The notes under the pieces: generated by a model
Databases searched by the model: none
What the model was told of the DNA's origin: nothing
Seen by the model: the letters and a program-made list of their open reading frames with translations, nothing else
NCBI GenBank assembly: GCA_019234695.1
Contig: GCA_019234695.1_3937.1
DNA from: a phage
Reading direction: 5' to 3' (one strand)
DNA: 64,000 nt
Shown: piece after piece, positions 3,888-16,001 of the stretch
Numbering within the stretch: the first letter of the stretch is position 1
How the letters are laid out: every line of letters starts with the position of its first letter
Position numbers and translations under genes: made by a program

Positions 3888-3914
3888 AAAAGGCTGCTTC
3901 GGCGGCCTTTTTTA
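3888..3914 (+). terminator. intrinsic terminator after rIIB
   Basis: AGGCTGC-TTCG-GCGGCCT followed by TTTTTT. Confidence 0.65.
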
Positions 3915-3943
3915 TTTGTATTTTGTGCAGAGTGCTGTATAAT
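3915..3943 (+). promoter_or_regulatory. promoter-like element
   Basis: TATAAT at 3938-3943 with weak -35; shares TTGTGCAG motif with 8.1 kb repeats. Confidence 0.35.
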
Positions 3944-6235: not shown

Positions 6236-6501
6236 CAGAGAATCAAGACACTTTCTATGTAGAAGGTTACTTACTGTTGCCACGACCAAAAGAAACTTAT
6301 ATGCGAATCGATTTCTTACCAACCATTATGGATAATGTGATGTGTCATATCTTTATGCAAGGTGTCACAGCACAGCTTAAGCATGTTGGTAAAGATTGCA
6401 AAATAAAGGTTGACACTCATCCAGAAATCAAAGAGAATCACTACACATGGTTCTTACCAGATTCTAAAGAAATCTTAGCAGTTCTTAAAACGAGGAAGTA
6501 A
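6232..6501 (+). CDS. hypothetical protein
   Basis: ORF track; start/stop overlap with neighbours. Confidence 0.45.
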   Translation: MTENQDTFYVEGYLLLPRPKETYMRIDFLPTIMDNVMCHIFMQGVTAQLKHVGKDCKIKVDTHPEIKENHYTWFLPDSKEILAVLKTRK

Positions 6502-6503
6502 CT

Positions 6504-6830
6504 ATGCAGATTAATGGAAGAGACTTTGTAGCCGTTTACTACGAGAAAGATAAAGAAGTTGGCGTAGCACAAGTGTCTTATGGCAATGGTAAGTGGCTAT
6601 ATGGAACAATCGCAGTAGTTGGAACAAGAAGTGATACAAAAACTTTTAAAGATTGTGTTGACCTTCTTGAAGAATCCATTCAGAATCATTGGTGTCTGAT
6701 ATGGATGACTGACAATGAAGTGATAGAACGCTTCAAAAAGATTGATATCAACATTGATAGTATTGAGCATGTTGATTTATATGAGCTAACTGAGAAGGTA
6801 AACTATGAGAGTAATTCTAGCCAGAGATAA
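6504..6830 (+). CDS. hypothetical protein
   Basis: ORF track; tightly packed in same operon. Confidence 0.45.
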   Translation: MQINGRDFVAVYYEKDKEVGVAQVSYGNGKWLYGTIAVVGTRSDTKTFKDCVDLLEESIQNHWCLIWMTDNEVIERFKKIDINIDSIEHVDLYELTEKVNYESNSSQR

Positions 6831-7032
6831 AAAGACACGGAAACTCATCCGGTCAGCAGTATTCATTGGAAGAAATGAAGTCATCCCGTTTACAGCAAAC
6901 GATGTGATAGCCTACAGGAAAAACTTAGTATTTAGTGATTGCTTGCGTGGCTTCATCTCCCAACCGTTGGAAGACTTTAAAAGCCGTTGTGGTAAAGGTA
7001 TCATCATTCAAGAGGCAATTATCAATGGCTGA
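6805..7032 (+). CDS. hypothetical protein
   Basis: ORF track. Confidence 0.4.
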   Translation: MRVILARDKKTRKLIRSAVFIGRNEVIPFTANDVIAYRKNLVFSDCLRGFISQPLEDFKSRCGKGIIIQEAIING

Positions 7033-7225
7033 CTTCTGCAAAGACTGTTCTATAGAAATGTTTGGACGTGATACAGGTGACTTAAAAGGTCTTATCACTG
7101 AGGATGACTTTAAAGCTGGCTACGCAATGCCAGTAATCTGTGAAGGTTGTGGGTGCATCTGGGTAGACCACGAAGGACAGCGTGTAAAACCTTCAGAAGA
7201 TAAAGAATCTTGGGAGAGATGTTAA
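7025..7225 (+). CDS. small Cys-rich zinc-binding protein
   Basis: internal ATG at 7025 (MADFCKDCS...) after AGAGG RBS, trimmed from ORF 6935..7225; CxxC and CEGCGC motifs. Confidence 0.4.
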   Translation: MADFCKDCSIEMFGRDTGDLKGLITEDDFKAGYAMPVICEGCGCIWVDHEGQRVKPSEDKESWERC

Positions 7226-8005
7226 ATGGGTATTGTAAAAGTTGTGAAAGGTAACTTACTAGCTGCCTTCAAAAACACAGACATTGAGTTAATTGCTCAT
7301 GGTTGCAACTGCCGTAACCTCATGGGTGCCGGAATCGCTCAAAAAATTGCTAAGATTTTCCCAAAAGCTGAAGAAGCTGACCGGAAATTCCATAAAAAGT
7401 TTGGCTACAGCGCTCATGATATCGGATACCAGATGGTTGGTGAGGTGTCACATGCTCGAACGGAGTATGGTTACATTTTTAACCTGTATACACAGTTAGA
7501 TGTTGGGAAGTGTGCATCATACCGATACTTAGTGGAGTCACTAGAAAAACTCCGTAAATTTTGCTGGATGCACAACATTCGTAAGATTGGTTTACCCATG
7601 ATTGGTGCAGGTATCGGTGGTTTAGACGCACAAGCTGTGAAAAGCCTCATTAATAGCGTTATGTACAACGTTGATGTGTACCTATACGTCTATGATGAAG
7701 CAATGGCAACTGTAGTTACCCCTAAGTATGCCACCTCAGCACCACAATTCTATGATGGTGTCGTGCTAAGTGACGGTAAGTCTAACCATGTTACCCTCTA
7801 TCAGCTTGTTGATGGTAAGGTCGAGGCTAGTTACCCTCTGGTTAGTGAGATGGGTATGTGTAATAGTGAAATGTTCTCAATTGACCCGTTTGGTAGATAC
7901 GAAGGGGTGTTCTTTGATAACTACCCAGCAGCATACATCTACACAACAAATCAGGATGAAGTTCACTACTTGCTGTATTCTAAAAAGTTCAAATTCATAA
8001 ACTGA
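7226..8005 (+). CDS. macro-domain protein, TARG1/OARD1-like ADP-ribose hydrolase fold, with ~100 aa C-terminal extension
   Basis: IAHGCNCRNLMGAGIAQKIAKIFP and IGLPMIGAGIGGLDAQAVKSLI resemble TARG1 motifs LAHCISEDCRMGAGIA and MPRIGCGLDRL (recalled from memory). Confidence 0.65.
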   Translation: MGIVKVVKGNLLAAFKNTDIELIAHGCNCRNLMGAGIAQKIAKIFPKAEEADRKFHKKFGYSAHDIGYQMVGEVSHARTEYGYIFNLYTQLDVGKCASYRYLVESLEKLRKFCWMHNIRKIGLPMIGAGIGGLDAQAVKSLINSVMYNVDVYLYVYDEAMATVVTPKYATSAPQFYDGVVLSDGKSNHVTLYQLVDGKVEASYPLVSEMGMCNSEMFSIDPFGRYEGVFFDNYPAAYIYTTNQDEVHYLLYSKKFKFIN

Positions 8006-8035
8006 TTAGTGCTTCACAGCACCTATAATTAATCT

Positions 8036-8085
8036 AAAAAGGCCGCCTAACCCATTGAAAAATTTAAGGTAAGGCGGCCTTTTTC
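8036..8085. terminator. large-loop hairpin with A-tract/T-tract flanks
   Basis: AAAAAGGCCGCC ... GGCGGCCTTTTT with ~24-nt loop after macro-domain gene. Confidence 0.45.
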
Positions 8086-8228
8086 ATTTTCAATTTGTGC
8101 AGGTAGCTGTATAGGTCTGCACAGGTGTCTCAAAAAATCTCATCGCCGGATAGAAAAATCATTTTCAAAACGTGCAGACCCCGCTCAGGTCGGGCAAGAA
8201 AAATCATTTTAGAATTGTGCAGGTAGGT
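8081..8228. repeat. three direct repeats (~28 bp) sharing TCATTTT..TGTGCAG core
   Basis: copies at 8081-8106, 8155-8180, 8201-8228; first copy inside palindrome TGTGCAG..CTGCACA; C-rich tract at 8250-8282. Confidence 0.5.
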
Positions 8229-8401
8229 TTTTATGGGGAGCCAGACCAACCCCTCCCCCCCTCTTACTCCACCTCTCCCCAAAAGTCAAGAGAAAAATTT
8301 GTAGCGGGTTGAAAAATAATTCTTGATTTGTGTTCTGTTTTGTGGTAGTCGTGCGCGCACGTTCATTTCCCAACCTTACAAAAAATATTTAATAAAAACC
8401 G

Positions 8402-8430
8402 TTGACACGACAAACAAGTTTACGTACTAT
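8402..8430 (+). promoter_or_regulatory. sigma70-like early promoter
   Basis: TTGACA-17-TACTAT. Confidence 0.55.
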
Positions 8431-8479
8431 TTGCATCAGACGGGCAAGCAAGCCCACTTCCTAAACTGGAGAATCGAAA

Positions 8480-8686
8480 ATGCTTTATAGTCGTGAATTG
8501 ATGGTTACAACTAACGTTAACACAAAGGTAAAACGTTTTTACATGCAAGTATGTGGCGCATGGTCTAGAATATCAGAGGCTGACTATTGCAACTATGTAG
8601 AAACAGCTATAAACTCTAATTGCTACCTTACAAGAAATACAAGAAAGTACATAAGACAGACAGCAGTTTATTACTACGATGTCTAA
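8480..8686 (+). CDS. hypothetical small protein
   Basis: ORF track; conserved leader CTAAACTGGAGA..AAAATG; upstream TTGACA-17-TACTAT promoter. Confidence 0.5.
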   Translation: MLYSRELMVTTNVNTKVKRFYMQVCGAWSRISEADYCNYVETAINSNCYLTRNTRKYIRQTAVYYYDV

Positions 8687-8687
8687 T

Positions 8688-8777
8688 AAAGTACTTTACA
8701 AGGGGCTTAAAAGCTGATATCTTAAGCCCCAGATAAAGAGCTTTACCAAATCAACCCTTAAACTAGGAGATTCAAAA
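8688..8777 (+). repeat. cassette A copy 1 (stem-loop plus conserved leader)
   Basis: GTACTTTACAAGGGGCTTAAAAG...CTTAAGCCCCAGATAAAGAGCTTTACC...AAACTAGGAGATTCAAAAATG. Confidence 0.7.
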
Positions 8778-9161
8778 ATGGCATATCGTGCACCTAAATT
8801 CATCAACAAAGACAATTTCCGCAATGCACTGGAAAAATCACTTGATGAGAATTTTAAAGGTAACGTTATTGTTGTTCACTCGTTTAATTTTAAGTATGAT
8901 ATTAACGGGAATAAAATCAACCATTACACGGCGACAATGCTAGATGGTACTCTTTCAAGTGAAAAAGCCATTTTACATGCACTTGCTGGACGTGGTAAAA
9001 ACCTGATAAGATGCGATAAGAGACGTTATCAGGGTGGCGCATATGGTTACGATGATGCTGTTTATCATCTTGAAAATATGGGCTATCAAGTAGAAAAAGA
9101 TGGAGTGTCTCAAATAATCGGTAGTGATGGTTACGTAACTATCTTCAAAATTAACAAATAA
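8778..9161 (+). CDS. hypothetical protein
   Basis: ORF track; conserved leader AAACTAGGAGATTCAAAAATG. Confidence 0.55.
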   Translation: MAYRAPKFINKDNFRNALEKSLDENFKGNVIVVHSFNFKYDINGNKINHYTATMLDGTLSSEKAILHALAGRGKNLIRCDKRRYQGGAYGYDDAVYHLENMGYQVEKDGVSQIIGSDGYVTIFKINK

Positions 9162-9246
9162 AGTACTTTACAAGGGGCTTATAGTTCGATAAAGTAAGCC
9201 CCAGATAAAGAACTTTACCACTCAATCCTAAATTGGAGATTCAAAA
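9160..9246 (+). repeat. cassette A copy 2
   Basis: same element; stem GGGGCTTA / TAAGCCCC. Confidence 0.7.
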
Positions 9247-9480
9247 ATGGCTACTATCAAAAACGTTGTAATTCCTGTAAAAACTCGTGATGACGCTCGC
9301 ATCATGGCGAAAAAGTTAGGCGGGAAAGTGGTTGACAACGGAAAACAATCTGCTGTAAGATGGGGTGTGAGGGCTGATAAACAGTTGAAGTTAAAAAATT
9401 CACCAATAAATCTTTTTACATGTGTAAACACTATCGGAAAGACAAATGTATACACGATTTACAAGGGGCTTAAAAGTTGA
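9247..9480 (+). CDS. hypothetical small protein
   Basis: ORF track; conserved leader; 3-prime end runs into cassette A hairpin. Confidence 0.5.
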   Translation: MATIKNVVIPVKTRDDARIMAKKLGGKVVDNGKQSAVRWGVRADKQLKLKNSPINLFTCVNTIGKTNVYTIYKGLKS

Positions 9481-9536
9481 TACCTTAAGCCCCAGATAAA
9501 GAGCTTTACCACTAATCCTAAACTGGAGATTCAAAA
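9455..9536 (+). repeat. cassette A copy 3
   Basis: same element; overlaps 3-prime end of ORF 9247..9480. Confidence 0.7.
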
Positions 9537-9833
9537 ATGAAATTATCAAATAAAGTTCGTGAAAATCTAAGCAAATTACTCAACAAAATTGATTTCATTG
9601 AAACATCAAGAAATAGCCATGATGTTATGGAATGGTTACACGGCAAAATAAAAGGTCGTCGTGTAGTGATTTGCTTATGGAATAGTTGCAGGGAGTATAA
9701 AAAACCTGTATTGCAAGTCAATATCTATGATGATACTTTTAAAAGCCCTGTAAAGTCTAAAAGCGATTTATTAGAATCCTATGAGATAACTGTAAATGGC
9801 AAAGTATCACGTAAAGAGGAAACACCATGTTAA
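9537..9833 (+). CDS. hypothetical protein
   Basis: ORF track; conserved leader. Confidence 0.5.
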   Translation: MKLSNKVRENLSKLLNKIDFIETSRNSHDVMEWLHGKIKGRRVVICLWNSCREYKKPVLQVNIYDDTFKSPVKSKSDLLESYEITVNGKVSRKEETPC

Positions 9834-10159
9834 TGACTGGTATCACTGCAATCATTGCCATTTTCGCGCTATATAAGGCATATAAAGCCTATAATCTAGC
9901 AAATAAGGCAATCACACAGCAGGTTAGCAATAACCTTGTAATGAGCTTTCTAGAGCGGTTGAGCGATGAACAATTAAAGCGGTTAGAAATGAGCTTTAGA
10001 TTCAGGGCGAGAACTTATCAAATCAGCGACATTTTCAAAGATGATTTTCAATTAGTCGATGATTATAATTCTCTGATAAATGCTTTAAATATTAGTGACT
10101 TAAAAGACTATCATACTGTAATTGTTCAAGAGTTGAGCAAACGAAAACAAAACTGTTGA
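9827..10159 (+). CDS. hypothetical protein (N-terminal TM)
   Basis: ORF track; GAGGA RBS; hydrophobic N-terminus. Confidence 0.45.
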   Translation: MLMTGITAIIAIFALYKAYKAYNLANKAITQQVSNNLVMSFLERLSDEQLKRLEMSFRFRARTYQISDIFKDDFQLVDDYNSLINALNISDLKDYHTVIVQELSKRKQNC

Positions 10160-10184
10160 CACTGGTTTTTAGATAGATTAAATT
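10156..10184 (+). promoter_or_regulatory. cassette B promoter (copy 1)
   Basis: TTGACA-17-TAAATT, then hairpin and conserved RBS. Confidence 0.55.
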
Positions 10185-10248
10185 ACACATCAACGGGGAG
10201 GCAATAAACACCCCACTAAATAAAGTCCTTAAACTAGGAGATTCTAAA

Positions 10249-10653
10249 ATGGCTATTAATAATCGTGAGTTGTCAATCTTAAAAGCACGTTTAACCGTTA
10301 ATCGAATCAATGTTATCACGTCATCAGCACCGGATGAAACATTGCACAACATTATCGGGAAGATTCAAAGTGTTATCTTAGACGTTGAAAACGTAAAAAA
10401 CTCATTGTCTGACGTTGCAGCAGGCATCACGCTAGACGGTGCACAATATGAAATGGCTGACATGTTAGGCAAATCAAAGGTAATGAATAAAGAGCTTGAT
10501 TTAAAAATGTTTCGTTTTGCTGTTAAAGTGTGGCTATCTGTTGAGTATGACGCAAATTTTGCAATCGCTGACTTTTTCGCAACATGGTTGCAACGTAATT
10601 TGACAAATCATGATTTTCGCGATGTCTGTGATGCAATTTATGCAGAACTTTAA
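10249..10653 (+). CDS. hypothetical protein
   Basis: ORF track; cassette B promoter and conserved leader upstream. Confidence 0.55.
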   Translation: MAINNRELSILKARLTVNRINVITSSAPDETLHNIIGKIQSVILDVENVKNSLSDVAAGITLDGAQYEMADMLGKSKVMNKELDLKMFRFAVKVWLSVEYDANFAIADFFATWLQRNLTNHDFRDVCDAIYAEL

Positions 10654-10661
10654 AAATTTTA

Positions 10662-10690
10662 TTGACACTGATTTTTAGATAGATTAAATT
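10662..10690 (+). promoter_or_regulatory. cassette B promoter (copy 2)
   Basis: TTGACA-17-TAAATT, then hairpin GGGGAGGGAATGACCTTCCCC and conserved RBS. Confidence 0.55.
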
Positions 10691-10754
10691 ACACATCAAC
10701 GGGGAGGGAATGACCTTCCCCACTAAGTAAAGTCCTTAAACTAGGAGATTCAAA

Positions 10755-10952
10755 ATGGCTATTATCAACGGTTTAACCATTGAAACCACGCACATCAAAG
10801 ACATTAAAGTTGGTGATATAGTTCTTTCCCACGGCGTAGAAAAAACAGTCACTGCAAAGGATATCAAAGATGATTCTTTCATGGGTAGAACTCTCTTCGG
10901 TGATTCTTATTGCTTAGGTTATCTTGCAGTTTTAAAAGTTGTCAAAAATTAA
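10755..10952 (+). CDS. hypothetical small protein
   Basis: ORF track; cassette B upstream. Confidence 0.5.
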   Translation: MAIINGLTIETTHIKDIKVGDIVLSHGVEKTVTAKDIKDDSFMGRTLFGDSYCLGYLAVLKVVKN

Positions 10953-10957
10953 CTGAT

Positions 10958-11046
10958 AAAGTACTTTACAAGGGGCTTAAAAGTTCGATAAAGTAAGCCC
11001 CAGATAAAGAGCTTTACCACTAAATCCTTAAACTAGGAGATTCAAA
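10958..11046 (+). repeat. cassette A copy 4
   Basis: same element upstream of ORF 11047. Confidence 0.7.
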
Positions 11047-11589
11047 ATGAAATGCTTTCACGGTACTACTCAAGAAAACTTTATCAACCTGATTAATAAC
11101 GGTGATAAACCATCAGGTGTATGGAATTGTTCGGATATGGACGGCAATTTTTACGTGTACCCAGAAAATAAACTCTATGGTGATGATGAGGAAGAGATAG
11201 CATCGGAAGGTATCCAGCAAGCTCTAGGAAATGCCACTATCACGGCAGCTTTTCAGATGAAAACTCAAAATATTGTTATCTTAGAACTTGACATTCCAGA
11301 GGATGAGCTAAATGATGATTATTCTTGTGATAACATGTCAAATATAGCAAGCTTTACAGAGTACTTTGATGTAAATTGGATTAAAAAGGTCTATACAACA
11401 GAGTTCAACGCTATGTATTCACCTTTTTGTCTCCCTTCACTGGATAACCCAAATTTAAATTATCTTGATGAAACATTGGAGCTACTTGCTAAAAGTATCC
11501 AACAATCCGACAGTATTCAGGTTTTTTGTGACATCATGGATACACTGACAGAAAACATTGTAGAGAGTGATTTAAAGGTCTTTTTCTAA
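11047..11589 (+). CDS. hypothetical protein
   Basis: ORF track; cassette A and conserved leader upstream. Confidence 0.55.
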   Translation: MKCFHGTTQENFINLINNGDKPSGVWNCSDMDGNFYVYPENKLYGDDEEEIASEGIQQALGNATITAAFQMKTQNIVILELDIPEDELNDDYSCDNMSNIASFTEYFDVNWIKKVYTTEFNAMYSPFCLPSLDNPNLNYLDETLELLAKSIQQSDSIQVFCDIMDTLTENIVESDLKVFF

Positions 11590-11655
11590 AAACCTATACA
11601 TTCACCTTATAAACACTGATTAACCCCTTACAGGGGCTTTTAGAGGGCTTAAATC

Positions 11656-11889
11656 ATGCTTACAACCATTTATCTCATCCTTTCTATCTGTAGCGGTCAT
11701 TCATGTGACTTTAAAGGGCTTGAAGAGTTTACAGGAAGTAAAGAAAATGCTATTCAGGTTTGCCAGATAGCAAGACAAGACTATCCCGCCAGTGATGATA
11801 TACAATGCTACTTTAAGACAGAAGATGAAGAAGGAATCTATTTCGACAGTGTTGATGGTCAATATGAAATTATCATTGAAAAAGACTAG
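11656..11889 (+). CDS. hypothetical small protein
   Basis: ORF track. Confidence 0.4.
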   Translation: MLTTIYLILSICSGHSCDFKGLEEFTGSKENAIQVCQIARQDYPASDDIQCYFKTEDEEGIYFDSVDGQYEIIIEKD

Positions 11890-11915
11890 ACAAGCCTGAT
11901 AAAAGTCTGTAAATT
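11887..11915 (+). promoter_or_regulatory. cassette B promoter (copy 3)
   Basis: TAGACA-17-TAAATT, then conserved hairpin and RBS. Confidence 0.45.
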
Positions 11916-11979
11916 ACACATCAACGGGGAGGGAATGACCTTCCCCACTAAATAAAGTCCTAAACTGGAGATTCTAAAA

Positions 11980-12321
11980 ATGGCTTATGTAACCGTAATT
12001 ACTGATAAAGAGAATTCATCTTGGTCAACTCAGGTTAGTGACAAGATGTCACCTATGCAGTGCCTAAAATACTTTGAGCAGTGGAATAAAGGCGAGGATG
12101 TAAGCCCATTTCAAGTGATGCAGGTTATCCATGTAGATAACGAAGGGAATAAAACGGTTTTAAATAGTGAGTACTACGCAAGCCGTTTTGAAACTAGAAG
12201 TAAAACAATGAAGCTTTTACGTGAATCCGGTTATGCCCATATCGCCGCGCTAATCTGGGATGACCTGCTAAAAAGTCAGCGTATCAGCTATGTAAAACCT
12301 GAAAAAATATTCATCAGTTAA
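11980..12321 (+). CDS. hypothetical protein
   Basis: ORF track; cassette B upstream. Confidence 0.55.
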   Translation: MAYVTVITDKENSSWSTQVSDKMSPMQCLKYFEQWNKGEDVSPFQVMQVIHVDNEGNKTVLNSEYYASRFETRSKTMKLLRESGYAHIAALIWDDLLKSQRISYVKPEKIFIS

Positions 12322-12352
12322 TCAATAACTTATAAAAAACTTTTAAAAAGTG

Positions 12353-12381
12353 TTGACAATACCCCTTGACAATAGTACATT
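12353..12381 (+). promoter_or_regulatory. promoter-like element (tandem TTGACA boxes)
   Basis: TTGACA-17-TACATT; second TTGACA at 12366. Confidence 0.35.
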
Positions 12382-12449
12382 TGTTCGAGGGGGTTTATCT
12401 AAAAGGGATTCACTTAAAAGATTCTTTATAGATAAACTTAAAAAATTGC

Positions 12450-12478
12450 TTGCAATCATCTTCCAAAAACTTTATAGT
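12450..12478 (+). promoter_or_regulatory. sigma70-like promoter
   Basis: TTGCAA-17-TATAGT upstream of 12521 ORF. Confidence 0.5.
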
Positions 12479-12520
12479 TTATCTCAAGCAATAATGCTTT
12501 CCTAAACTGGAGATTCAAAA

Positions 12521-13051
12521 ATGAACAAGTTCAAAGCTATCAACTACATTCGCTCAAATAGTGTCATGTCTAAGCCTGTTAAGGATACCTACGAATTCCG
12601 TTGCAATGGTGAACACTTTGCTACCATCACCAAATCAAATAACGGGGCTTATTATATCCATCGTCGTAATGTTTCTACGGTTGTAGTTTCTAACTTTATG
12701 CAAGCTGTAGCGGAACTCCTCCCGCTCTTCTTAGAAAAGTATGCCGTACAGTGTGAAAGTGTTCGTGAATGCACTAAAACAGTGTTAAACGGTTATCGTA
12801 TGGCTTACGAGCGCTCTTTAAAGAATCTCAATAAATACTACAAAGCACCGGAAGGCACTTCATCCACAGCCTACGGGGTAGGGGGCTTCAATGTCAGCCT
12901 TTACGAAGTGGAAGAAATCGAGCTTTATGACCATCGCCCAAATGGTTACGCTAAGACACTGGGAGATGGGTTAATGCTGAATATCAAGAACTTAGAAAAA
13001 ACTTTAAGAGAAATTGAAAAAGATATTGACGAGACAATCAAAAGTCTGTAA
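12521..13051 (+). CDS. hypothetical protein
   Basis: ORF track; TTGCAA-17-TATAGT promoter and conserved leader upstream. Confidence 0.55.
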   Translation: MNKFKAINYIRSNSVMSKPVKDTYEFRCNGEHFATITKSNNGAYYIHRRNVSTVVVSNFMQAVAELLPLFLEKYAVQCESVRECTKTVLNGYRMAYERSLKNLNKYYKAPEGTSSTAYGVGGFNVSLYEVEEIELYDHRPNGYAKTLGDGLMLNIKNLEKTLREIEKDIDETIKSL

Positions 13052-13054
13052 ATT
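13026..13054 (+). promoter_or_regulatory. cassette B promoter (copy 4)
   Basis: TTGACG-17-TAAATT, then conserved hairpin and RBS. Confidence 0.5.
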
Positions 13055-13116
13055 ATCAATCAACGGGGAGGGAATAACCTTCCCCACTAAGTAAAGTCCT
13101 AAACTGGAGATTCAAA

Positions 13117-13380
13117 ATGGAACACGTAGAACTGACCACACTCTTACAAATCGCAACCGACAAGGAAGACGTAGCATTATTTCACCGTATAGAGAGTGAT
13201 TTGTTCAATGGTGAAATCATCAAAGAATCTTACGAAGTTGTCGGATTCAAAGATGGTAAAGCATTTGGCTTTTTTGACCTCGACAAAAGCAAAGCGGTTA
13301 CAAAGTACGATGTTCTATCTTGTGAGATTCTTACAAAATACAACGAAAAAAGGCTTGCAACATACGCCAACATGCAGTAA
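13117..13380 (+). CDS. hypothetical protein
   Basis: ORF track; cassette B upstream. Confidence 0.55.
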   Translation: MEHVELTTLLQIATDKEDVALFHRIESDLFNGEIIKESYEVVGFKDGKAFGFFDLDKSKAVTKYDVLSCEILTKYNEKRLATYANMQ

Positions 13381-13694: not shown

Positions 13695-13704
13695 TCGACG
13701 CAAC

Positions 13705-13757
13705 GGGGCTAAATAGCCCCAGATACCTTAAAAGCTCCTTCTCATAGGGGCTTTTTT
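13705..13757 (+). terminator. stem-loops and T-tract after last small ORF
   Basis: GGGGCTAAATAGCCCC hairpin, then CATAGGGGCTTTTTT. Confidence 0.4.
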
Positions 13758-13759
13758 AC

Positions 13760-15290
13760 GTCTATAAAGAGACTCTATACAATCTCTTTCCTTCCCTTTC
13801 CAGAATCTATCCCACTGATTCGATAGAATCTATCTCGTACCTTAAAAGCAATAACTCTATAGCTTACTCTATAGCCCCTTATCAAATCAACTTAAATAAA
13901 AGCCAATAACCCCAGAAAGGGGATGGCCCATTTAAACGCTCTATAAAGCCCTATAACAGCCTTATCAACCTAACTTAAGGGATTGCATTACCTAACCATT
14001 AAAAGCCCTTTATAAAGCTTCCTAGAGGCTTAAAAGAATCTTATAAGGGTGTAAGCTTTATCATCTCGTTAGCTATCTTGTGAATAACTCAATAGCCCTT
14101 GATAGTCTCTAAAAAGTATGTTATAGGGGCTGTTAAGTTACTTTGAAGTTACGTAAAAGAGGCTATAAAGTTACGTAAATGCTAGCCCCCTTAACATTTT
14201 CTTAACAATTTCTTAACAAACCCTACATAGTTATGCTTGTTAGAGACTTATTAGCCCCTTGTTAAATCTCTGTTAAGACCACGTAAAAGCCTTGTAAGAG
14301 TCTTTAGCATAGCCTTTAAAGCCTCTGTAAAGCTCTATAAAGAGGTATCTGTACAGTTGGGGTGTAATTACTAGGAAGAGGCTTAAAAGGGCTTACAAGG
14401 AGCTATAGAGAGCTTTTAAGAGGTATGTTTAGAGAATCACTAAGAAAGAGAGGGAACGATAAGAAAAGAGATAGTGACCTTGTTAATAGCTTGTTAAAAA
14501 GATTAAACACTTGTTAGGAACTTGTTAATTATCCCTACAAAATAACTCTTTAAAATTAACTTGTTAGCTCTTGTTAGTCATCTGTTAAGCCTCTGTAAAG
14601 ACTATGTATCAACTGTTAAGAAACTGTTAAGCCCTTGTTAGTTCTGTTAAGAATCTGTTAAGACCTTTGAAGAGTTGTTAAGAAGATGTGAGAACTGTTA
14701 AGAGATTGTTAAGGATATTTTAAAATTTTGCAAAGTACTTGTAAGGGAGCTGTTAAGGGCTACCAAGCAGATATACATCTTCTACAGATATTTTTCAGTT
14801 CCTTCAAAGACCCTAAAAAATGACTTGATAGTCCTATTTTATAAAAATTTTAAAAATCTGAATAATTACCTAGACAGTCTTTTAAAAAATACAGGTAGAA
14901 ACAGGCTTATAAGATACCTTGTTAGTACCGTGTTAGACCTTGTGAGATAAGGTCTGTAAAGATATTCCTGTTAAGTTTGTTAAAACAGTCTATATAGAGG
15001 CTTAGTAATACCTAGTGAACACCTATAGAGAGTATCATAGCTGACATAGAGATTAAGGGGTGTATAGAGGCTTCTAAGAGCGTATAGAGAGATGGTTAAG
15101 GTGATTGTATAGGTTGTTAAGAAGGCTTGTTAGAAGAGTGTTTAGAGGGCTTATTAAAGGGCTAGTTAGAAGGCTTATACAGGGGGGCTATTAAGACCAC
15201 TAGATAGTTACTAAGATACTATATAGTACTATATAACTATATAGAGAGTAAGACTAAGGAGGTTGTTAAGAAGGATAGATATTTTGTTCA
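13760..15290. repeat. ORF-free iteron-rich region (degenerate CTGTTAAG / CTTGTTAG repeats; TATAGAG and TATAAAG motifs)
   Basis: no ORF of 60 aa or more on either strand across ~1.68 kb; about 35 copies of TGTTA(A/G), densest at 14470-14720. Confidence 0.7.
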
Positions 15291-15377
15291 CATATGCTGG
15301 TGACCCAGAGGTTGGGACAACCGATAAAATTTTATAAAAATTAAAAAGCCCCCGATTAAGGAGGCTCTTAAGATATT

Positions 15378-16001
15378 TTAAATCAGTGTTTCCAGAACTG
15401 TTTTAAGGGATGACTTAGTTGTCTGATAAAAATGAGTGAATCCGTTGTTGTTATCGAATATCTGCATCATGATATCATCTCCCTTGATTGGGTATACTCG
15501 GATATCATAGTGAAAACCATTAAAGACACAAGACCCATTACAGAATGCACTAAAGTCATCCACTGAGATATACTCTTCATGTCCTGTGATTTTTATACAA
15601 ACACCTTTACTCGGTCTCTTAGGGTTGATATCTTCCATCACAGACATACTCTGTCCACCAAGAGACACCATAGTGACCACTTTACGGTTCTTCTGTCTAA
15701 AGTACATCTTAACTTTCTGCAAAGTGTCTTCATAGAACGGATAAGACCTTTCTACAAAGATTCCTTCAAGTGGCTCTTTACCATTTTCAACTTCTCTGGT
15801 ATGTCGTACTGCAAAGATAATTTGTTGGAACCAGTCAAGATTTTCTTCGGAGAGTGCTTCTCGAACATCACTCCAGTCAAGGACTAAGTAGTTACCTTCA
15901 ACTTCTTTTAAGTTATCTTTTTCCATATCTATCACACCATTATCGTAAAACTTGATATTCTGGTACTGCGAATTTATTACTATTGTTCTTGATGAGGTCA
16001 T
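15378..16001 (-). CDS. hypothetical protein
   Basis: ORF track; first gene of leftward block; start may be an internal ATG. Confidence 0.5.
   Translation of the reverse strand: MTSSRTIVINSQYQNIKFYDNGVIDMEKDNLKEVEGNYLVLDWSDVREALSEENLDWFQQIIFAVRHTREVENGKEPLEGIFVERSYPFYEDTLQKVKMYFRQKNRKVVTMVSLGGQSMSVMEDINPKRPSKGVCIKITGHEEYISVDDFSAFCNGSCVFNGFHYDIRVYPIKGDDIMMQIFDNNNGFTHFYQTTKSSLKTVLETLI

What the first reader, a model, noticed from the sequence alone, without database searches (positions are those of the whole stretch)
8081..8282. Three direct repeats with TGTGCAG core plus a polypyrimidine tract between macro-domain gene and small-ORF region
Copies at 8081-8106, 8155-8180 and 8201-8228 share (A)AAATCATTTT-N5-TGTGCAG; the first lies within palindrome TGTGCAG..CTGCACA, and a related TTTGTGCAG-N4-CTGTATAAT occurs upstream at 3920. 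A C-rich run (CCAACCCCTCCCCCCCTCTTACTCCACCTCTCCCC) follows. The arrangement resembles an operator or iteron array controlling entry into the accessory region.
Basis: seen in the sequence. Interest (0 to 1): 0.35.

Follow-up and report, generated by a model that had tools for sequence, protein, structure and literature searches.

The report
Conserved repeat array after phage terminator
The three repeats are real: they form a non-coding array that Felix O1-like phages have kept at this one spot across at least five lineages, probably as protein-binding sites on the DNA, though what binds them and what they do is still unknown.

Summary
The window is the first 64 kb of a Felixounavirus genome. 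The repeats are real. TCATTTT-N6-GTGCAG occurs exactly at 8084, 8159 and 8204, against 0 exact matches per shuffled window.

The array lies in a 475-nt gap between the macro-domain gene's terminator and a strong sigma-70 promoter at 8402-8430. Three to five copies sit at the same position in Felixounavirus, Mooglevirus, Suspvirus, Kolesnikvirus (phiEa21-4) and a more distant metagenomic relative. Motif bases are 88-96% conserved; spacers are 57-77%.

The extended ~27-bp motif occurs nowhere else in about 86 kb of genome. One diverged copy sits at -38..-20 of a conserved promoter after the rIIB terminator.

The array is non-coding, has no conserved RNA fold and no Rfam match. Its A/T run flips between AAAA and TTTT, which favours recognition as DNA. 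Its 5' half looks like the UP/-35 region of the phage's own promoters, but most copies lack a -10.

My best reading, at about 35%, is an array of protein-binding sites acting on transcription at an operon boundary. Replication-origin iterons (about 20%), an RNA role, and a T5-like injection-stop signal are not excluded.

The C-rich tract is replaced by unrelated sequence in about 40% of relatives. No paper I found describes the array; the Felix O1 paper annotated it as 'gene 14'.

The parts
7226..8005 (+). Macro-domain ('phosphatase', Tk.4-like) gene, last gene of the upstream operon. This is a divergent allele.
   Evidence: Pfam PF01661 Macro, 29.8 bits against a cut-off of 22. Only 41% amino-acid identity to the allele in most Felixounaviruses, so the array sits at a mosaic junction.
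8036..8091 (+). Intrinsic terminator: arms 8036-8052 and 8068-8084, then the T-tail TTTTTCATTTT. The tail is at the same time the 5' half of repeat copy 1. It is the counterpart of Felix O1 't13'.
   Evidence: Inverted repeat I2, 17 nt, 94% complementary. The consensus fold keeps this hairpin. Listed as t13 in PMC3185647 Table 2. The right arm GGTAAGGnGGnC is 87% conserved while the left arm varies.
8077..8105 (+). Repeat copy 1 (core TCATTTTCAATTTGTGCAG, 8084-8102), T-tract type.
   Evidence: 88% column conservation across 33 distinct relatives.
8096..8123 (.). Palindrome TGTGCAG-N14-CTGCACA around copy 1. Lineage-specific.
   Evidence: Kept only in window-type relatives.
8152..8180 (+). Repeat copy 2 (core TCATTTTCAAAACGTGCAG, 8159-8177), A-tract type. 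Equivalent to copy 3 of the four-copy relatives.
   Evidence: 91% conserved. Relatives carry one more copy inside a 41-nt stretch that is missing here.
8197..8225 (+). Repeat copy 3 (core TCATTTTAGAATTGTGCAG, 8204-8222), A-tract type. The last copy in all relatives.
   Evidence: 96% conserved.
8245..8284 (+). G-free polypyrimidine-rich tract ('variant C'). A candidate Rho-binding (rut-like) stretch on the + strand RNA. Not universal.
   Evidence: C 24, G 0 over 8245-8282. A homologous CCCACCnTCCCCTCT(T)AC is present in Mooglevirus and phiEa21-4. Replaced by an unrelated 'variant G' sequence in 14 of 33 relatives.
8261..8289 (-). Promoter-like element on the minus strand: TTGACT (8289-8284), 17 nt, TAAGAG (8266-8261). 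It would send an antisense transcript through the array.
   Evidence: The -35 is invariant in the 33 relatives. Variant G keeps TTGACT-N17-TAGCCT at the same spacing (read). TAAGAG lacks the -7 T, and no equivalent -35 exists in phiEa21-4. Inference only.
8280..8350 (+). Most conserved block of the gap (91%). It holds an UP-like run plus TTGATT-N17-TAGTCG and a weak hairpin without covariation.
   Evidence: Not recognisable in phiEa21-4.
8376..8430 (+). A/T-rich UP-like run plus the sigma-70 promoter TTGACA-N17-TACTAT, which drives the first accessory gene (8480-8686).
   Evidence: 10 of 12 consensus positions; the only hit in the gap. TTGAC and TAnTAT are conserved in relatives. Same upstream layout as other strong promoters of this phage.
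3888..3943 (+). Second locus of the motif: rIIB terminator (3888-3911), diverged motif copy (3912-3930), and promoter TTGTAT (3916-3921)-N16-TATAAT (3938-3943) for the operon that ends at the array.
   Evidence: TGTGCAG and TATAAT are conserved in Felix-type and Moogle-type phages and further relatives. The site is absent from phiEa21-4.

Best explanation
The three repeats belong to a non-coding array of 3-5 same-orientation copies. The ~27-bp two-part motif is G-R-G-M, then a run of four A/T, then TCATTTY, then six variable bases, then GTGCA(GG)TAG.

Shown: all Ounavirinae lineages examined keep the array directly after the terminator of the macro-domain gene.

Inferred: I read it as a set of binding sites on double-stranded DNA for a sequence-specific protein, more likely phage-encoded than host. 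This protein would act on transcription at the boundary between the rIIB-to-macro operon and the early accessory module.

Shown: the motif is built like the upstream half of this phage's own sigma-70 promoters (an UP-like A/T run plus a -35-like TTTNRA), with a GTGCAG box added.

Shown: the one other copy lies at -38..-20 of the conserved promoter that starts the same operon.

Inferred: the same factor would therefore sit on that promoter and, in several copies, just past the operon's terminator. There it could block read-through, hold or titrate RNA polymerase or the factor, or set when transcription proceeds toward the accessory genes.
For: - The copies are real and far beyond chance.
- Position, orientation and copy identity are conserved in Felixounavirus, Mooglevirus, Suspvirus, Kolesnikvirus phiEa21-4 and a distant syntenic contig.
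- Motif columns are 88-96% conserved against 57-77% for spacers.
- The extended motif occurs at this locus only, in the 64-kb window plus Felix O1 60-86 kb.
- It is non-coding: spacings of 73, 39, 45, 75, 41 and 37 nt, and indels of 2, 4, 6 and 41 nt.
- No conserved RNA fold on either strand and no Rfam match.
- The A/T run is AAAA in some copies and TTTT in others. That preserves a narrow minor groove but not an RNA sequence.
- The 5' half resembles the A5-N2-T4-A5-N3-4 region upstream of the TTGACA promoters of this phage.
- The diverged copy at 3912-3930 overlaps the -35/spacer of a promoter whose TGTGCAG and TATAAT are both conserved across genera.
- The array is transcribed in Felix O1-infected cells: 'gene 14' was RT-PCR positive, though the assay was not strand-specific.
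Against: - No binding protein is identified. The 20 neighbouring ORFs have no DNA-binding domain in Pfam or PHROGs.
- The copies have no dyad symmetry.
- The array ends 180 nt upstream of the -35 of the strong promoter at 8402.
- Only copy 1 has a -10-like hexamer at the right distance (TATAGG), and it is not conserved.
- The second locus at 3912 is missing in phiEa21-4, so it is not part of the ancestral element.
- Spacing varies between lineages, which speaks against strict cooperative binding.
- A single-locus array of direct repeats would fit a replication origin equally well.
Confidence: 0.35

Rival explanations
1. Replication origin. The repeats are iterons for a phage initiator or a host factor. 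Replication would start nearby with help from the adjacent promoters, as in origins of other lytic phages that depend on transcription.
For: - The array has 3-5 direct repeats in one orientation, is confined to one locus in the genome, and is conserved while its flanks are swapped.
- A/T tracts lie inside each unit, and an A/T-rich stretch plus strong promoters lie downstream.
- In phiEa21-4 the 3' half of all four copies is within one mismatch of a DnaA box (CTATGCACA, TTATGCACG).
- In the distant contig the array is followed by an A/T-rich run of about nine TTAACA repeats.
- The replication genes resemble those of T7 (primase/helicase labelled '4A', exonuclease labelled '6'), but the phage has no RNA polymerase of its own (PMC3185647). 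A host-promoter-primed origin is therefore conceivable; this step rests on general knowledge.
Against: - The window's gap has no DnaA box within one mismatch.
- Spacings of 37-45 and 73-75 bp are not the roughly 22-bp phased spacing of classical iterons and differ between lineages.
- No initiator-like gene was found among the neighbours.
- GC skew follows gene orientation and gives no origin signal.
- A diverged copy lies inside a promoter 4 kb away.
- No paper in the searched library maps an Ounavirinae origin.
Confidence: 0.2
2. RNA-level element. The repeats work in a transcript: either read-through RNA from the macro-domain gene, or an antisense RNA of roughly 230 nt. The antisense RNA would start at the minus-strand TTGACT-N17-TAAGAG and end at the two-way terminator. 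It would act as an unstructured platform or sponge for an RNA-binding protein, or as a processing signal.
For: - The region is transcribed in Felix O1. 'Gene 14' was RT-PCR positive and peaked at 25 min, unlike the upstream gene 13, which peaked at 5 min.
- The minus-strand -35 is invariant, and both unrelated tract variants keep a TAnnnN hexamer exactly 17 nt away.
- In the window the terminator has T-runs on both sides.
- The G-free C-rich tract would suit Rho binding on the + strand RNA.
Against: - No conserved secondary structure and almost no covariation on either strand.
- No Rfam match above E = 0.05.
- The A/T run flips between A and U among copies.
- TAAGAG lacks the critical -7 T.
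- Neither the minus-strand -35 nor a two-way terminator is present in phiEa21-4, and the terminator is poorly two-way in Felix O1.
- The RT-PCR was not strand-specific and could reflect read-through.
Confidence: 0.12
3. No sequence-specific function of its own. The array would be leftover tandem duplications of a terminator-tail-plus-promoter cassette. It would persist because it serves as a patch of homology for recombination between modules.
For: - Copy 1 is the terminator tail itself, and TTTTTCATTT-type tails are common to this phage's terminators.
- The copy at 3912 shows that the same cassette exists elsewhere.
- The array is a mosaic junction. Both left-flank types occur with both tract variants, and the flanking macro alleles are only 41% identical.
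- The accessory region has other repeated intergenic cassettes.
Against: - Neutral remnants would not keep TCATTT and GTGCA nearly invariant in every copy across lineages whose proteins are only 40-60% identical while the spacers diverge.
- Each copy keeps its own identity across phages, which indicates selection on individual copies rather than homogenisation.
Confidence: 0.1
4. Injection-pause boundary like the T5 injection stop signal. The array would mark the inner edge of a terminal segment of about 6.6 kb that enters the cell first and carries small early genes.
For: - The physical genome ends map to window ~14185-14800: the Ro111lw record has an identical 613-bp repeat at both ends and starts at window 14185 (PhageTerm result reported in PMC6454146).
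- The array therefore lies about 6.6 kb, or roughly 7.5% of the genome, from the right end. The T5 first-step-transfer segment is 7.9% (bioRxiv 10.1101/866236).
- The segment in between holds only small genes of unknown function behind strong sigma-70 promoters, and several peak at 5 min.
- The T5 signal is likewise an untranslated, highly conserved repeat region, with DnaA boxes. phiEa21-4's copies are near-DnaA boxes.
Against: - Two-step injection has never been reported for Felix O1-like phages in the papers read.
- It is unknown which end enters first.
- No DnaA boxes in the window's array.
- The T5 region is far more complex and lies inside a 10-kb terminal repeat.
- I did not search for homologues of T5 A1 or A2.
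Confidence: 0.06

Closest known systems
Iteron arrays of plasmid and phage replication origins (lambda ori, P1 oriR, R6K, pSC101)
   Same: Three to five direct repeats of about 20 bp in one orientation. One locus per genome. A/T tracts in or next to the repeats. A/T-rich DNA and promoters nearby.
   Different: Spacing is 37-45 bp (73-75 bp where a unit has decayed) and is not helically phased. No initiator gene is recognisable. No DnaA box in the window. The first copy doubles as a terminator tail. A related copy lies inside a promoter.
Activator or operator sites that occupy the -35/spacer of sigma-70 promoters (for example the MotA box of T4 middle promoters)
   Same: At 3912-3930 the motif spans -38..-20 of a promoter with a perfect -10 and a weak -35. 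The box is conserved although it lies in a normally unconstrained spacer.
   Different: This is not a promoter class: two loci only, not dozens. Most array copies have no -10. The box is centred near -23, not -30. I did not search for MotA or AsiA homologues; the Felix O1 authors report no proteins that alter host RNA polymerase promoter specificity (PMC3185647).
UP elements (binding sites for the RNA polymerase alpha C-terminal domain)
   Same: The stretch AGAAAAATCATTTTCAAAAC matches 15 of 17 specified positions of the consensus NNAAAWWTWTTTTNNNAAANNN. That consensus is recalled from memory and the count was made by hand. The stretch also mirrors the A5-N2-T4-A5 run upstream of this phage's TTGACA promoters.
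   Different: The run is followed by an invariant GTGCAG rather than a -35 hexamer. Several copies carry TTTTT in place of AAAAA. It is arrayed without core promoters.
T5 injection stop signal (iss) region
   Same: An untranslated repeat region that is better conserved than the neighbouring genes. It lies at the inner edge of a terminal segment of about 7-8% of the genome that carries early genes.
   Different: Far simpler in structure. No inverted-repeat pairs. No DnaA boxes in Felixounavirus. Short (613 bp) rather than 10-kb terminal repeats. No evidence of two-step entry.
PeSL-type promoter-plus-stem-loop cassettes of T4-like phages (recalled from memory, not checked here)
   Same: A terminator-plus-promoter-like unit repeated at module boundaries and coinciding with mosaic junctions.
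   Different: Here the units are in tandem at one site, most lack a -10, and the motif is conserved far more deeply than the flanks.

Membership tests
Iteron-type replication origin | Three or more direct repeats of about 17-22 bp in the same orientation | tested here: met
   3 copies in the window and 4-5 in relatives, all on the + strand.
Iteron-type replication origin | Regular, helically phased spacing (about 22 bp or multiples of 10.5 bp) | tested here: not met
   Spacings of 75 and 45; 73, 39, 45; 75, 41, 45; 37, 37, 39. These correspond to 3.5-4.3 helical turns and differ between lineages.
Iteron-type replication origin | Adjacent A/T-rich unwinding element and/or DnaA boxes | tested here: inconclusive
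   The A/T-rich run at 8376-8400 lies 150 nt away and doubles as a promoter UP region. The window's gap has 0 DnaA boxes within one mismatch; phiEa21-4's has 5, 4 of them in the repeats.
Iteron-type replication origin | Cognate initiator protein encoded by the element | tested here: inconclusive
   No initiator or DNA-binding domain in 20 neighbouring ORFs. The rest of the genome was checked only through existing annotation.
Iteron-type replication origin | Supports initiation of replication | not testable with these tools
   Needs marker-frequency sequencing or a plasmid replication assay.
Operator array of a transcription regulator | Sites overlap or closely flank a core promoter | tested here: inconclusive
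   Met for the diverged copy at 3912-3930, at -38..-20 of TTGTAT-N16-TATAAT. Not met for the array, which ends 180 nt before the -35 at 8402.
Operator array of a transcription regulator | Dyad symmetry, or tandem half-sites with fixed spacing | tested here: not met
   The motif is asymmetric. The one palindrome, around copy 1, is lineage-specific.
Operator array of a transcription regulator | Identified cognate regulator | tested here: not met
   None found.
Sigma-70 promoters (tandem) | A -35 and a -10 hexamer 16-18 bp apart, with A at -11 and T at -7 | tested here: not met
   The scan finds only 8402-8430 in the gap. Copy 1 gives TTTCAA-N16-TATAGG, with no -7 T and no conservation. Copies 2 and 3 have no -10.
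Phage-specific promoter class (T4 middle or late type) | The same motif upstream of many genes of one temporal class | tested here: not met
   The weight matrix and a GTGCAG context scan find the motif only in the array and at 3912.
Structured non-coding RNA | Conserved secondary structure with covariation, or an Rfam match | tested here: not met
   Best Rfam E-value was 0.059, for the terminator hairpin. Consensus folds are weak (-6.4 and -2.2 kcal/mol over about 200 nt) and only the terminator is kept.
Protein-coding gene (Felix O1 'gene 14') | Open reading frame conserved among relatives | tested here: not met
   Indels of 2, 4, 6 and 41 nt, and spacings that are not multiples of 3. The ORF has been dropped from RefSeq NC_005282.
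Rho-binding (rut) site, for the C-rich tract only | C-rich, G-poor, unstructured RNA stretch, conserved | tested here: inconclusive
   C 24, G 0 over 38 nt in the window. A G-rich unrelated variant replaces it in 14 of 33 relatives.
T5-like injection stop signal | Conserved untranslated repeats at the inner edge of the first-entering terminal segment (about 8% of the genome) | tested here: inconclusive
   The distance to the right physical end is about 6.6 kb, roughly 7.5%. Which end enters first is unknown.
T5-like injection stop signal | Paired DnaA boxes in inverted repeats; A1 and A2 genes; two-step DNA transfer | tested here: not met
   No DnaA boxes in the window's gap. A1 and A2 homologues were not searched. 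DNA transfer cannot be tested with these tools.
Genome terminus or packaging signal | Lies at or in the terminal repeat | tested here: not met
   The terminal repeat maps to window ~14185-14800, about 6 kb away.

The most novel reading that the evidence does not exclude
The array is the inner boundary of a terminal early module. It would be a cis-acting stop or pause signal, functionally like the T5 injection stop signal. It would delimit the last ~6.6 kb (about 7.5%) of the linear genome, which carries only small early genes behind strong host-type promoters. That would make staged DNA entry, or staged exposure of the genome, a feature of Felix O1-like myoviruses. A milder version of the same idea is that the array is the long-sought replication origin of this subfamily.
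Probability: 0.07. Interest if true: 0.75.

Novelty: new variant of a known kind. Interest (0 to 1): 0.45.

Why it matters
Felix O1 is a classic Salmonella typing phage, and its relatives are widely used in biocontrol and phage therapy. The original genome paper says it is not known how transcription gets past the many terminators or how it is timed, and in the library I searched I found no description of this array or of a replication origin for these phages.

This array is one of the most conserved non-coding sequences I saw in the region I aligned. It sits where a long operon ends and the early accessory module begins, at a hotspot of module exchange, and it was annotated as a protein gene ('gene 14'). 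Finding what binds it would give a direct handle on one of three open questions: regulation, replication start, or DNA entry.

It also matters for engineering these phages. The array marks a junction that should not be disturbed blindly, and it flags an ORF call to remove.

Tried and rejected
- Structured RNA: no credible Rfam match, and consensus folding of both strands showed no conserved structure beyond the terminator.
- Coding: ORFs over the array are not conserved.
- General promoter class: weight-matrix and GTGCAG context scans over about 86 kb found only the array and the site at 3912.
- Sigma-70 promoters in the copies: none pass the scan. By eye I also compared the motif with the sigma-54, sigma-E, IHF, Fis, CRP, Fur, PhoB and RfaH-ops consensus sequences as I remember them. 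None fitted, but these are recollections, not tests.
- DnaA boxes: present within one mismatch in phiEa21-4 but absent in the window, so not a family-wide feature.
- Packaging or terminus signal: rejected, because the terminal repeat maps about 6 kb away.
- Host or plasmid origin of the sequence: no blastn match in 5,426 E. coli genomes or 72,556 plasmids.
- Candidate binding protein among the neighbours: Pfam and PHROGs gave only 'unknown function', plus the Macro domain and a weak SLT match.
- GC skew as an origin indicator: it follows gene orientation only.
- Literature: five searches aimed at promoter motifs, a transcriptome or an origin for Felix O1-like phages found no description of the array. 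One of them was too loose to be useful.
- CRISPR-like array: considered and dropped. Units are irregular, the 'spacers' are conserved between phages, and there are only 3-5 units.
- Unrelated hits: the pattern scans of viral contigs also returned repeat families that share the loose pattern by chance (L020, L023, L028, L029, L048, L053, L066 and others). I set these aside.

Full report
**Context**

The window matches 253 phage records, nearly all Felixounavirus and relatives (Ounavirinae). It opens at rIIA, as the Felix O1 reference does. The finding lies in a 475-nt ORF-free gap (8006-8479). On its left is a macro-domain gene (7226-8005; Pfam Macro 29.8 bits). On its right is a 68-codon ORF (8480-8686) that begins a run of small genes of unknown function.

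Yes. TCATTTT-N6-GTGCAG occurs exactly at 8084, 8159 and 8204 and nowhere else in 64 kb. Shuffled windows gave no exact match in 300 trials.

The palindrome around copy 1, the related site near 3920 and the C-rich run are all present. The run has C 24 and G 0 over 8245-8282.

**Anatomy of the gap**

From left to right:
- 8036-8084: an intrinsic terminator. Its T-tail, TTTTTCATTTT, is also the 5' half of copy 1.
- Three repeat copies, spaced 75 and 45 nt.
- The G-free C-rich tract.
- 8280-8350: a 71-nt block that is 91% conserved.
- A short GC palindrome.
- An A/T-rich run followed by TTGACA-N17-TACTAT (8402-8430). This is the only sigma-70 consensus hit in the gap.

**Conservation**

I aligned the gap from 33 distinct Felix-type, Moogle-type and Susp-type phages. 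The repeat motifs are 88-96% identical to the window, the spacers 57-77%, and the stretch before the terminator 43%.

Most relatives have four copies, spaced 73, 39, 45 or 75, 41, 45. The window's lineage lacks one copy through a 41-nt gap. Each copy keeps its own variant bases from phage to phage.

Erwinia phage phiEa21-4 (Kolesnikvirus) gave no nucleotide-level match. It nevertheless has the same layout after its macro/phosphatase gene: a terminator, four copies of WWWWW(C/T)ATTTT-N6-GTGCATAR spaced 37, 37 and 39 nt, then a homologous C-rich stretch.

A still more distant contig (proteins 40-60% identical, same gene order) carries four scoring copies plus one degenerate copy at the same place.

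The pooled motif is G-R-G-M-WWWW-TCATTTY-MRAWWY-GTGCAG-RT. The Erwinia form differs by lacking 'GG' (GTGCA-TAG against GTGCA-GG-TAG).

**Where else does the motif occur?**

A weight matrix scores the three window copies at 32-41 bits. The next site, 3912, scores 10.3, inside the range seen in shuffles. Nothing scores in Felix O1 60-86 kb, the part of the genome the window lacks.

The 3912 site is nevertheless a relative. It follows the rIIB terminator and matches copy 1 at 21 of 27 positions. It lies at -38..-20 of TTGTAT-N16-TATAAT. Both TGTGCAG and TATAAT are conserved in Felix-type and Moogle-type phages and further relatives. It is absent from phiEa21-4. No other GTGCAG in the window has this context.

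The motif therefore marks the start, and in several copies the end, of the operon running from gene 3 to the macro-domain gene.

**DNA or RNA, coding or not?**

- Not coding: spacings are not multiples of three and indels of 2, 4, 6 and 41 nt occur.
- The Felix O1 paper placed 'gene 14' (8042-8254, no homologues) on the array. RefSeq has since dropped it.
- No Rfam family matches.
- Consensus folding of either strand keeps only the terminator hairpin.
- The four-base A/T run is AAAA in some copies and TTTT in others. That keeps DNA shape but not RNA sequence.
- The 5' half of the motif resembles the A5-N2-T4-A5-N3-4 stretch upstream of this phage's TTGACA promoters. It is followed by a -35-like TTTNRA and then the invariant box.
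- Most copies have no -10.

I conclude that the copies are most likely read as double-stranded DNA by a sequence-specific protein. The region is transcribed in infected cells ('gene 14' RT-PCR positive, peak at 25 min), but that assay was not strand-specific.

**What it is not**

- Not the genome terminus. The Ro111lw record carries an identical 613-bp repeat at both ends and begins at window 14185, so the ends lie about 6 kb to the right.
- Not host-derived. There is no match in E. coli genomes or plasmids.
- Not a DnaA-box cluster in this phage, although phiEa21-4's copies are within one mismatch of the box.
- GC skew tracks gene orientation and says nothing about an origin.

**The C-rich tract**

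It has homologues in Mooglevirus and phiEa21-4. In 14 of 33 relatives it is replaced by an unrelated, G-richer sequence of the same length. Both variants keep a minus-strand TTGACT-N17-TAnnnN. This hints at a leftward promoter, but TAAGAG is a poor -10 and phiEa21-4 has no equivalent.

The tract could serve as a Rho-binding site on read-through RNA. It is not a constant partner of the repeats.

**Mosaic junction**

The window's macro allele is only 41% identical to the common one. Both left-flank types occur with both tract variants. The array is therefore a recombination junction, yet its motif bases are held constant.

**Interpretation**

- Best reading (about 0.35): protein-binding sites that act on transcription at the operon boundary, related to the box in the promoter at 3916-3943.
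- Origin iterons (about 0.2): they fit the single-locus direct repeats but not the spacing, and there is no initiator.
- An RNA role (about 0.12), a selectively neutral cassette remnant (about 0.1) and a T5-like injection-stop boundary (about 0.06; compare) remain open.

I found no paper describing the array. The function is untested, and the experiments listed under next steps would separate these readings.

Noticed in passing
window 13700-15400 (terminal repeat about 14185-14800): This is a 1.6-kb ORF-free gap between the + strand and - strand gene blocks. It contains the physical genome ends: the Ro111lw record's 613-bp terminal repeat starts at window 14185. The gap is packed with short repeats: 18 TGTTAA on the + strand in 14251-15000, three TTAACA spaced 11 bp apart at 14191-14220, and many CTATAAAG-type motifs.
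   Followed up: partly
L059/L079 (IMGVR_UViG_3300045988_063805); merged coordinates about 14250-15000 and 6500-7500: In this distant relative the array is followed at once by about nine TTAACA repeats roughly 11 bp apart. A second TTAACA/TGTTAA cluster lies about 7.5 kb further on, so the accessory module is bracketed by the same hexamer repeats that fill the terminal repeat of the window's phage.
   Followed up: partly
window 3888-3943: This is a terminator-promoter cassette after rIIB: a hairpin, a diverged copy of the repeat motif, and TTGTAT-N16-TATAAT. The TGTGCAG box lies in the promoter spacer and is conserved across genera. It is probably the real promoter of the operon from gene 3 to the macro-domain gene.
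   Followed up: yes
window 7226-8005: The macro-domain gene is a divergent allele. It is 95-99% identical in only 12 phage records (97% in Escherichia phage EcoM2) and about 41% identical at the amino-acid level to the allele of most Felixounaviruses. Its terminator hairpin is swapped along with it.
   Followed up: partly
window 8690-13120 (for example 10179-10248, 10685-10756, 11909-11978, 13048-13118; promoters at 10156 and 10662): Repeated intergenic cassettes, each a stem-loop plus a TTGACA promoter, separate the small accessory genes. They correspond to the 57-bp and 39-bp repeats reported for Felix O1. All ten accessory proteins tested fall in PHROG families of unknown function.
   Followed up: partly
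window 8280-8350: This 71-nt block is 91% conserved in Felix-type, Moogle-type and Susp-type phages, which makes it one of the best-kept parts of the gap, on a par with the repeat copies. It has an UP-like run, TTGATT-N17-TAGTCG (the -7 base is G in all variants) and a hairpin without covariation. It is not recognisable in phiEa21-4. Its function is unknown.
   Followed up: partly
Felix O1 8042-8254 (L002 1442-1654); FO1a gp14 (L076 442-654): 'Gene 14' / gp14 is annotated on top of the repeat array in the Felix O1 and FO1a GenBank records. It is almost certainly a spurious ORF, and it is already absent from RefSeq NC_005282.
   Followed up: yes
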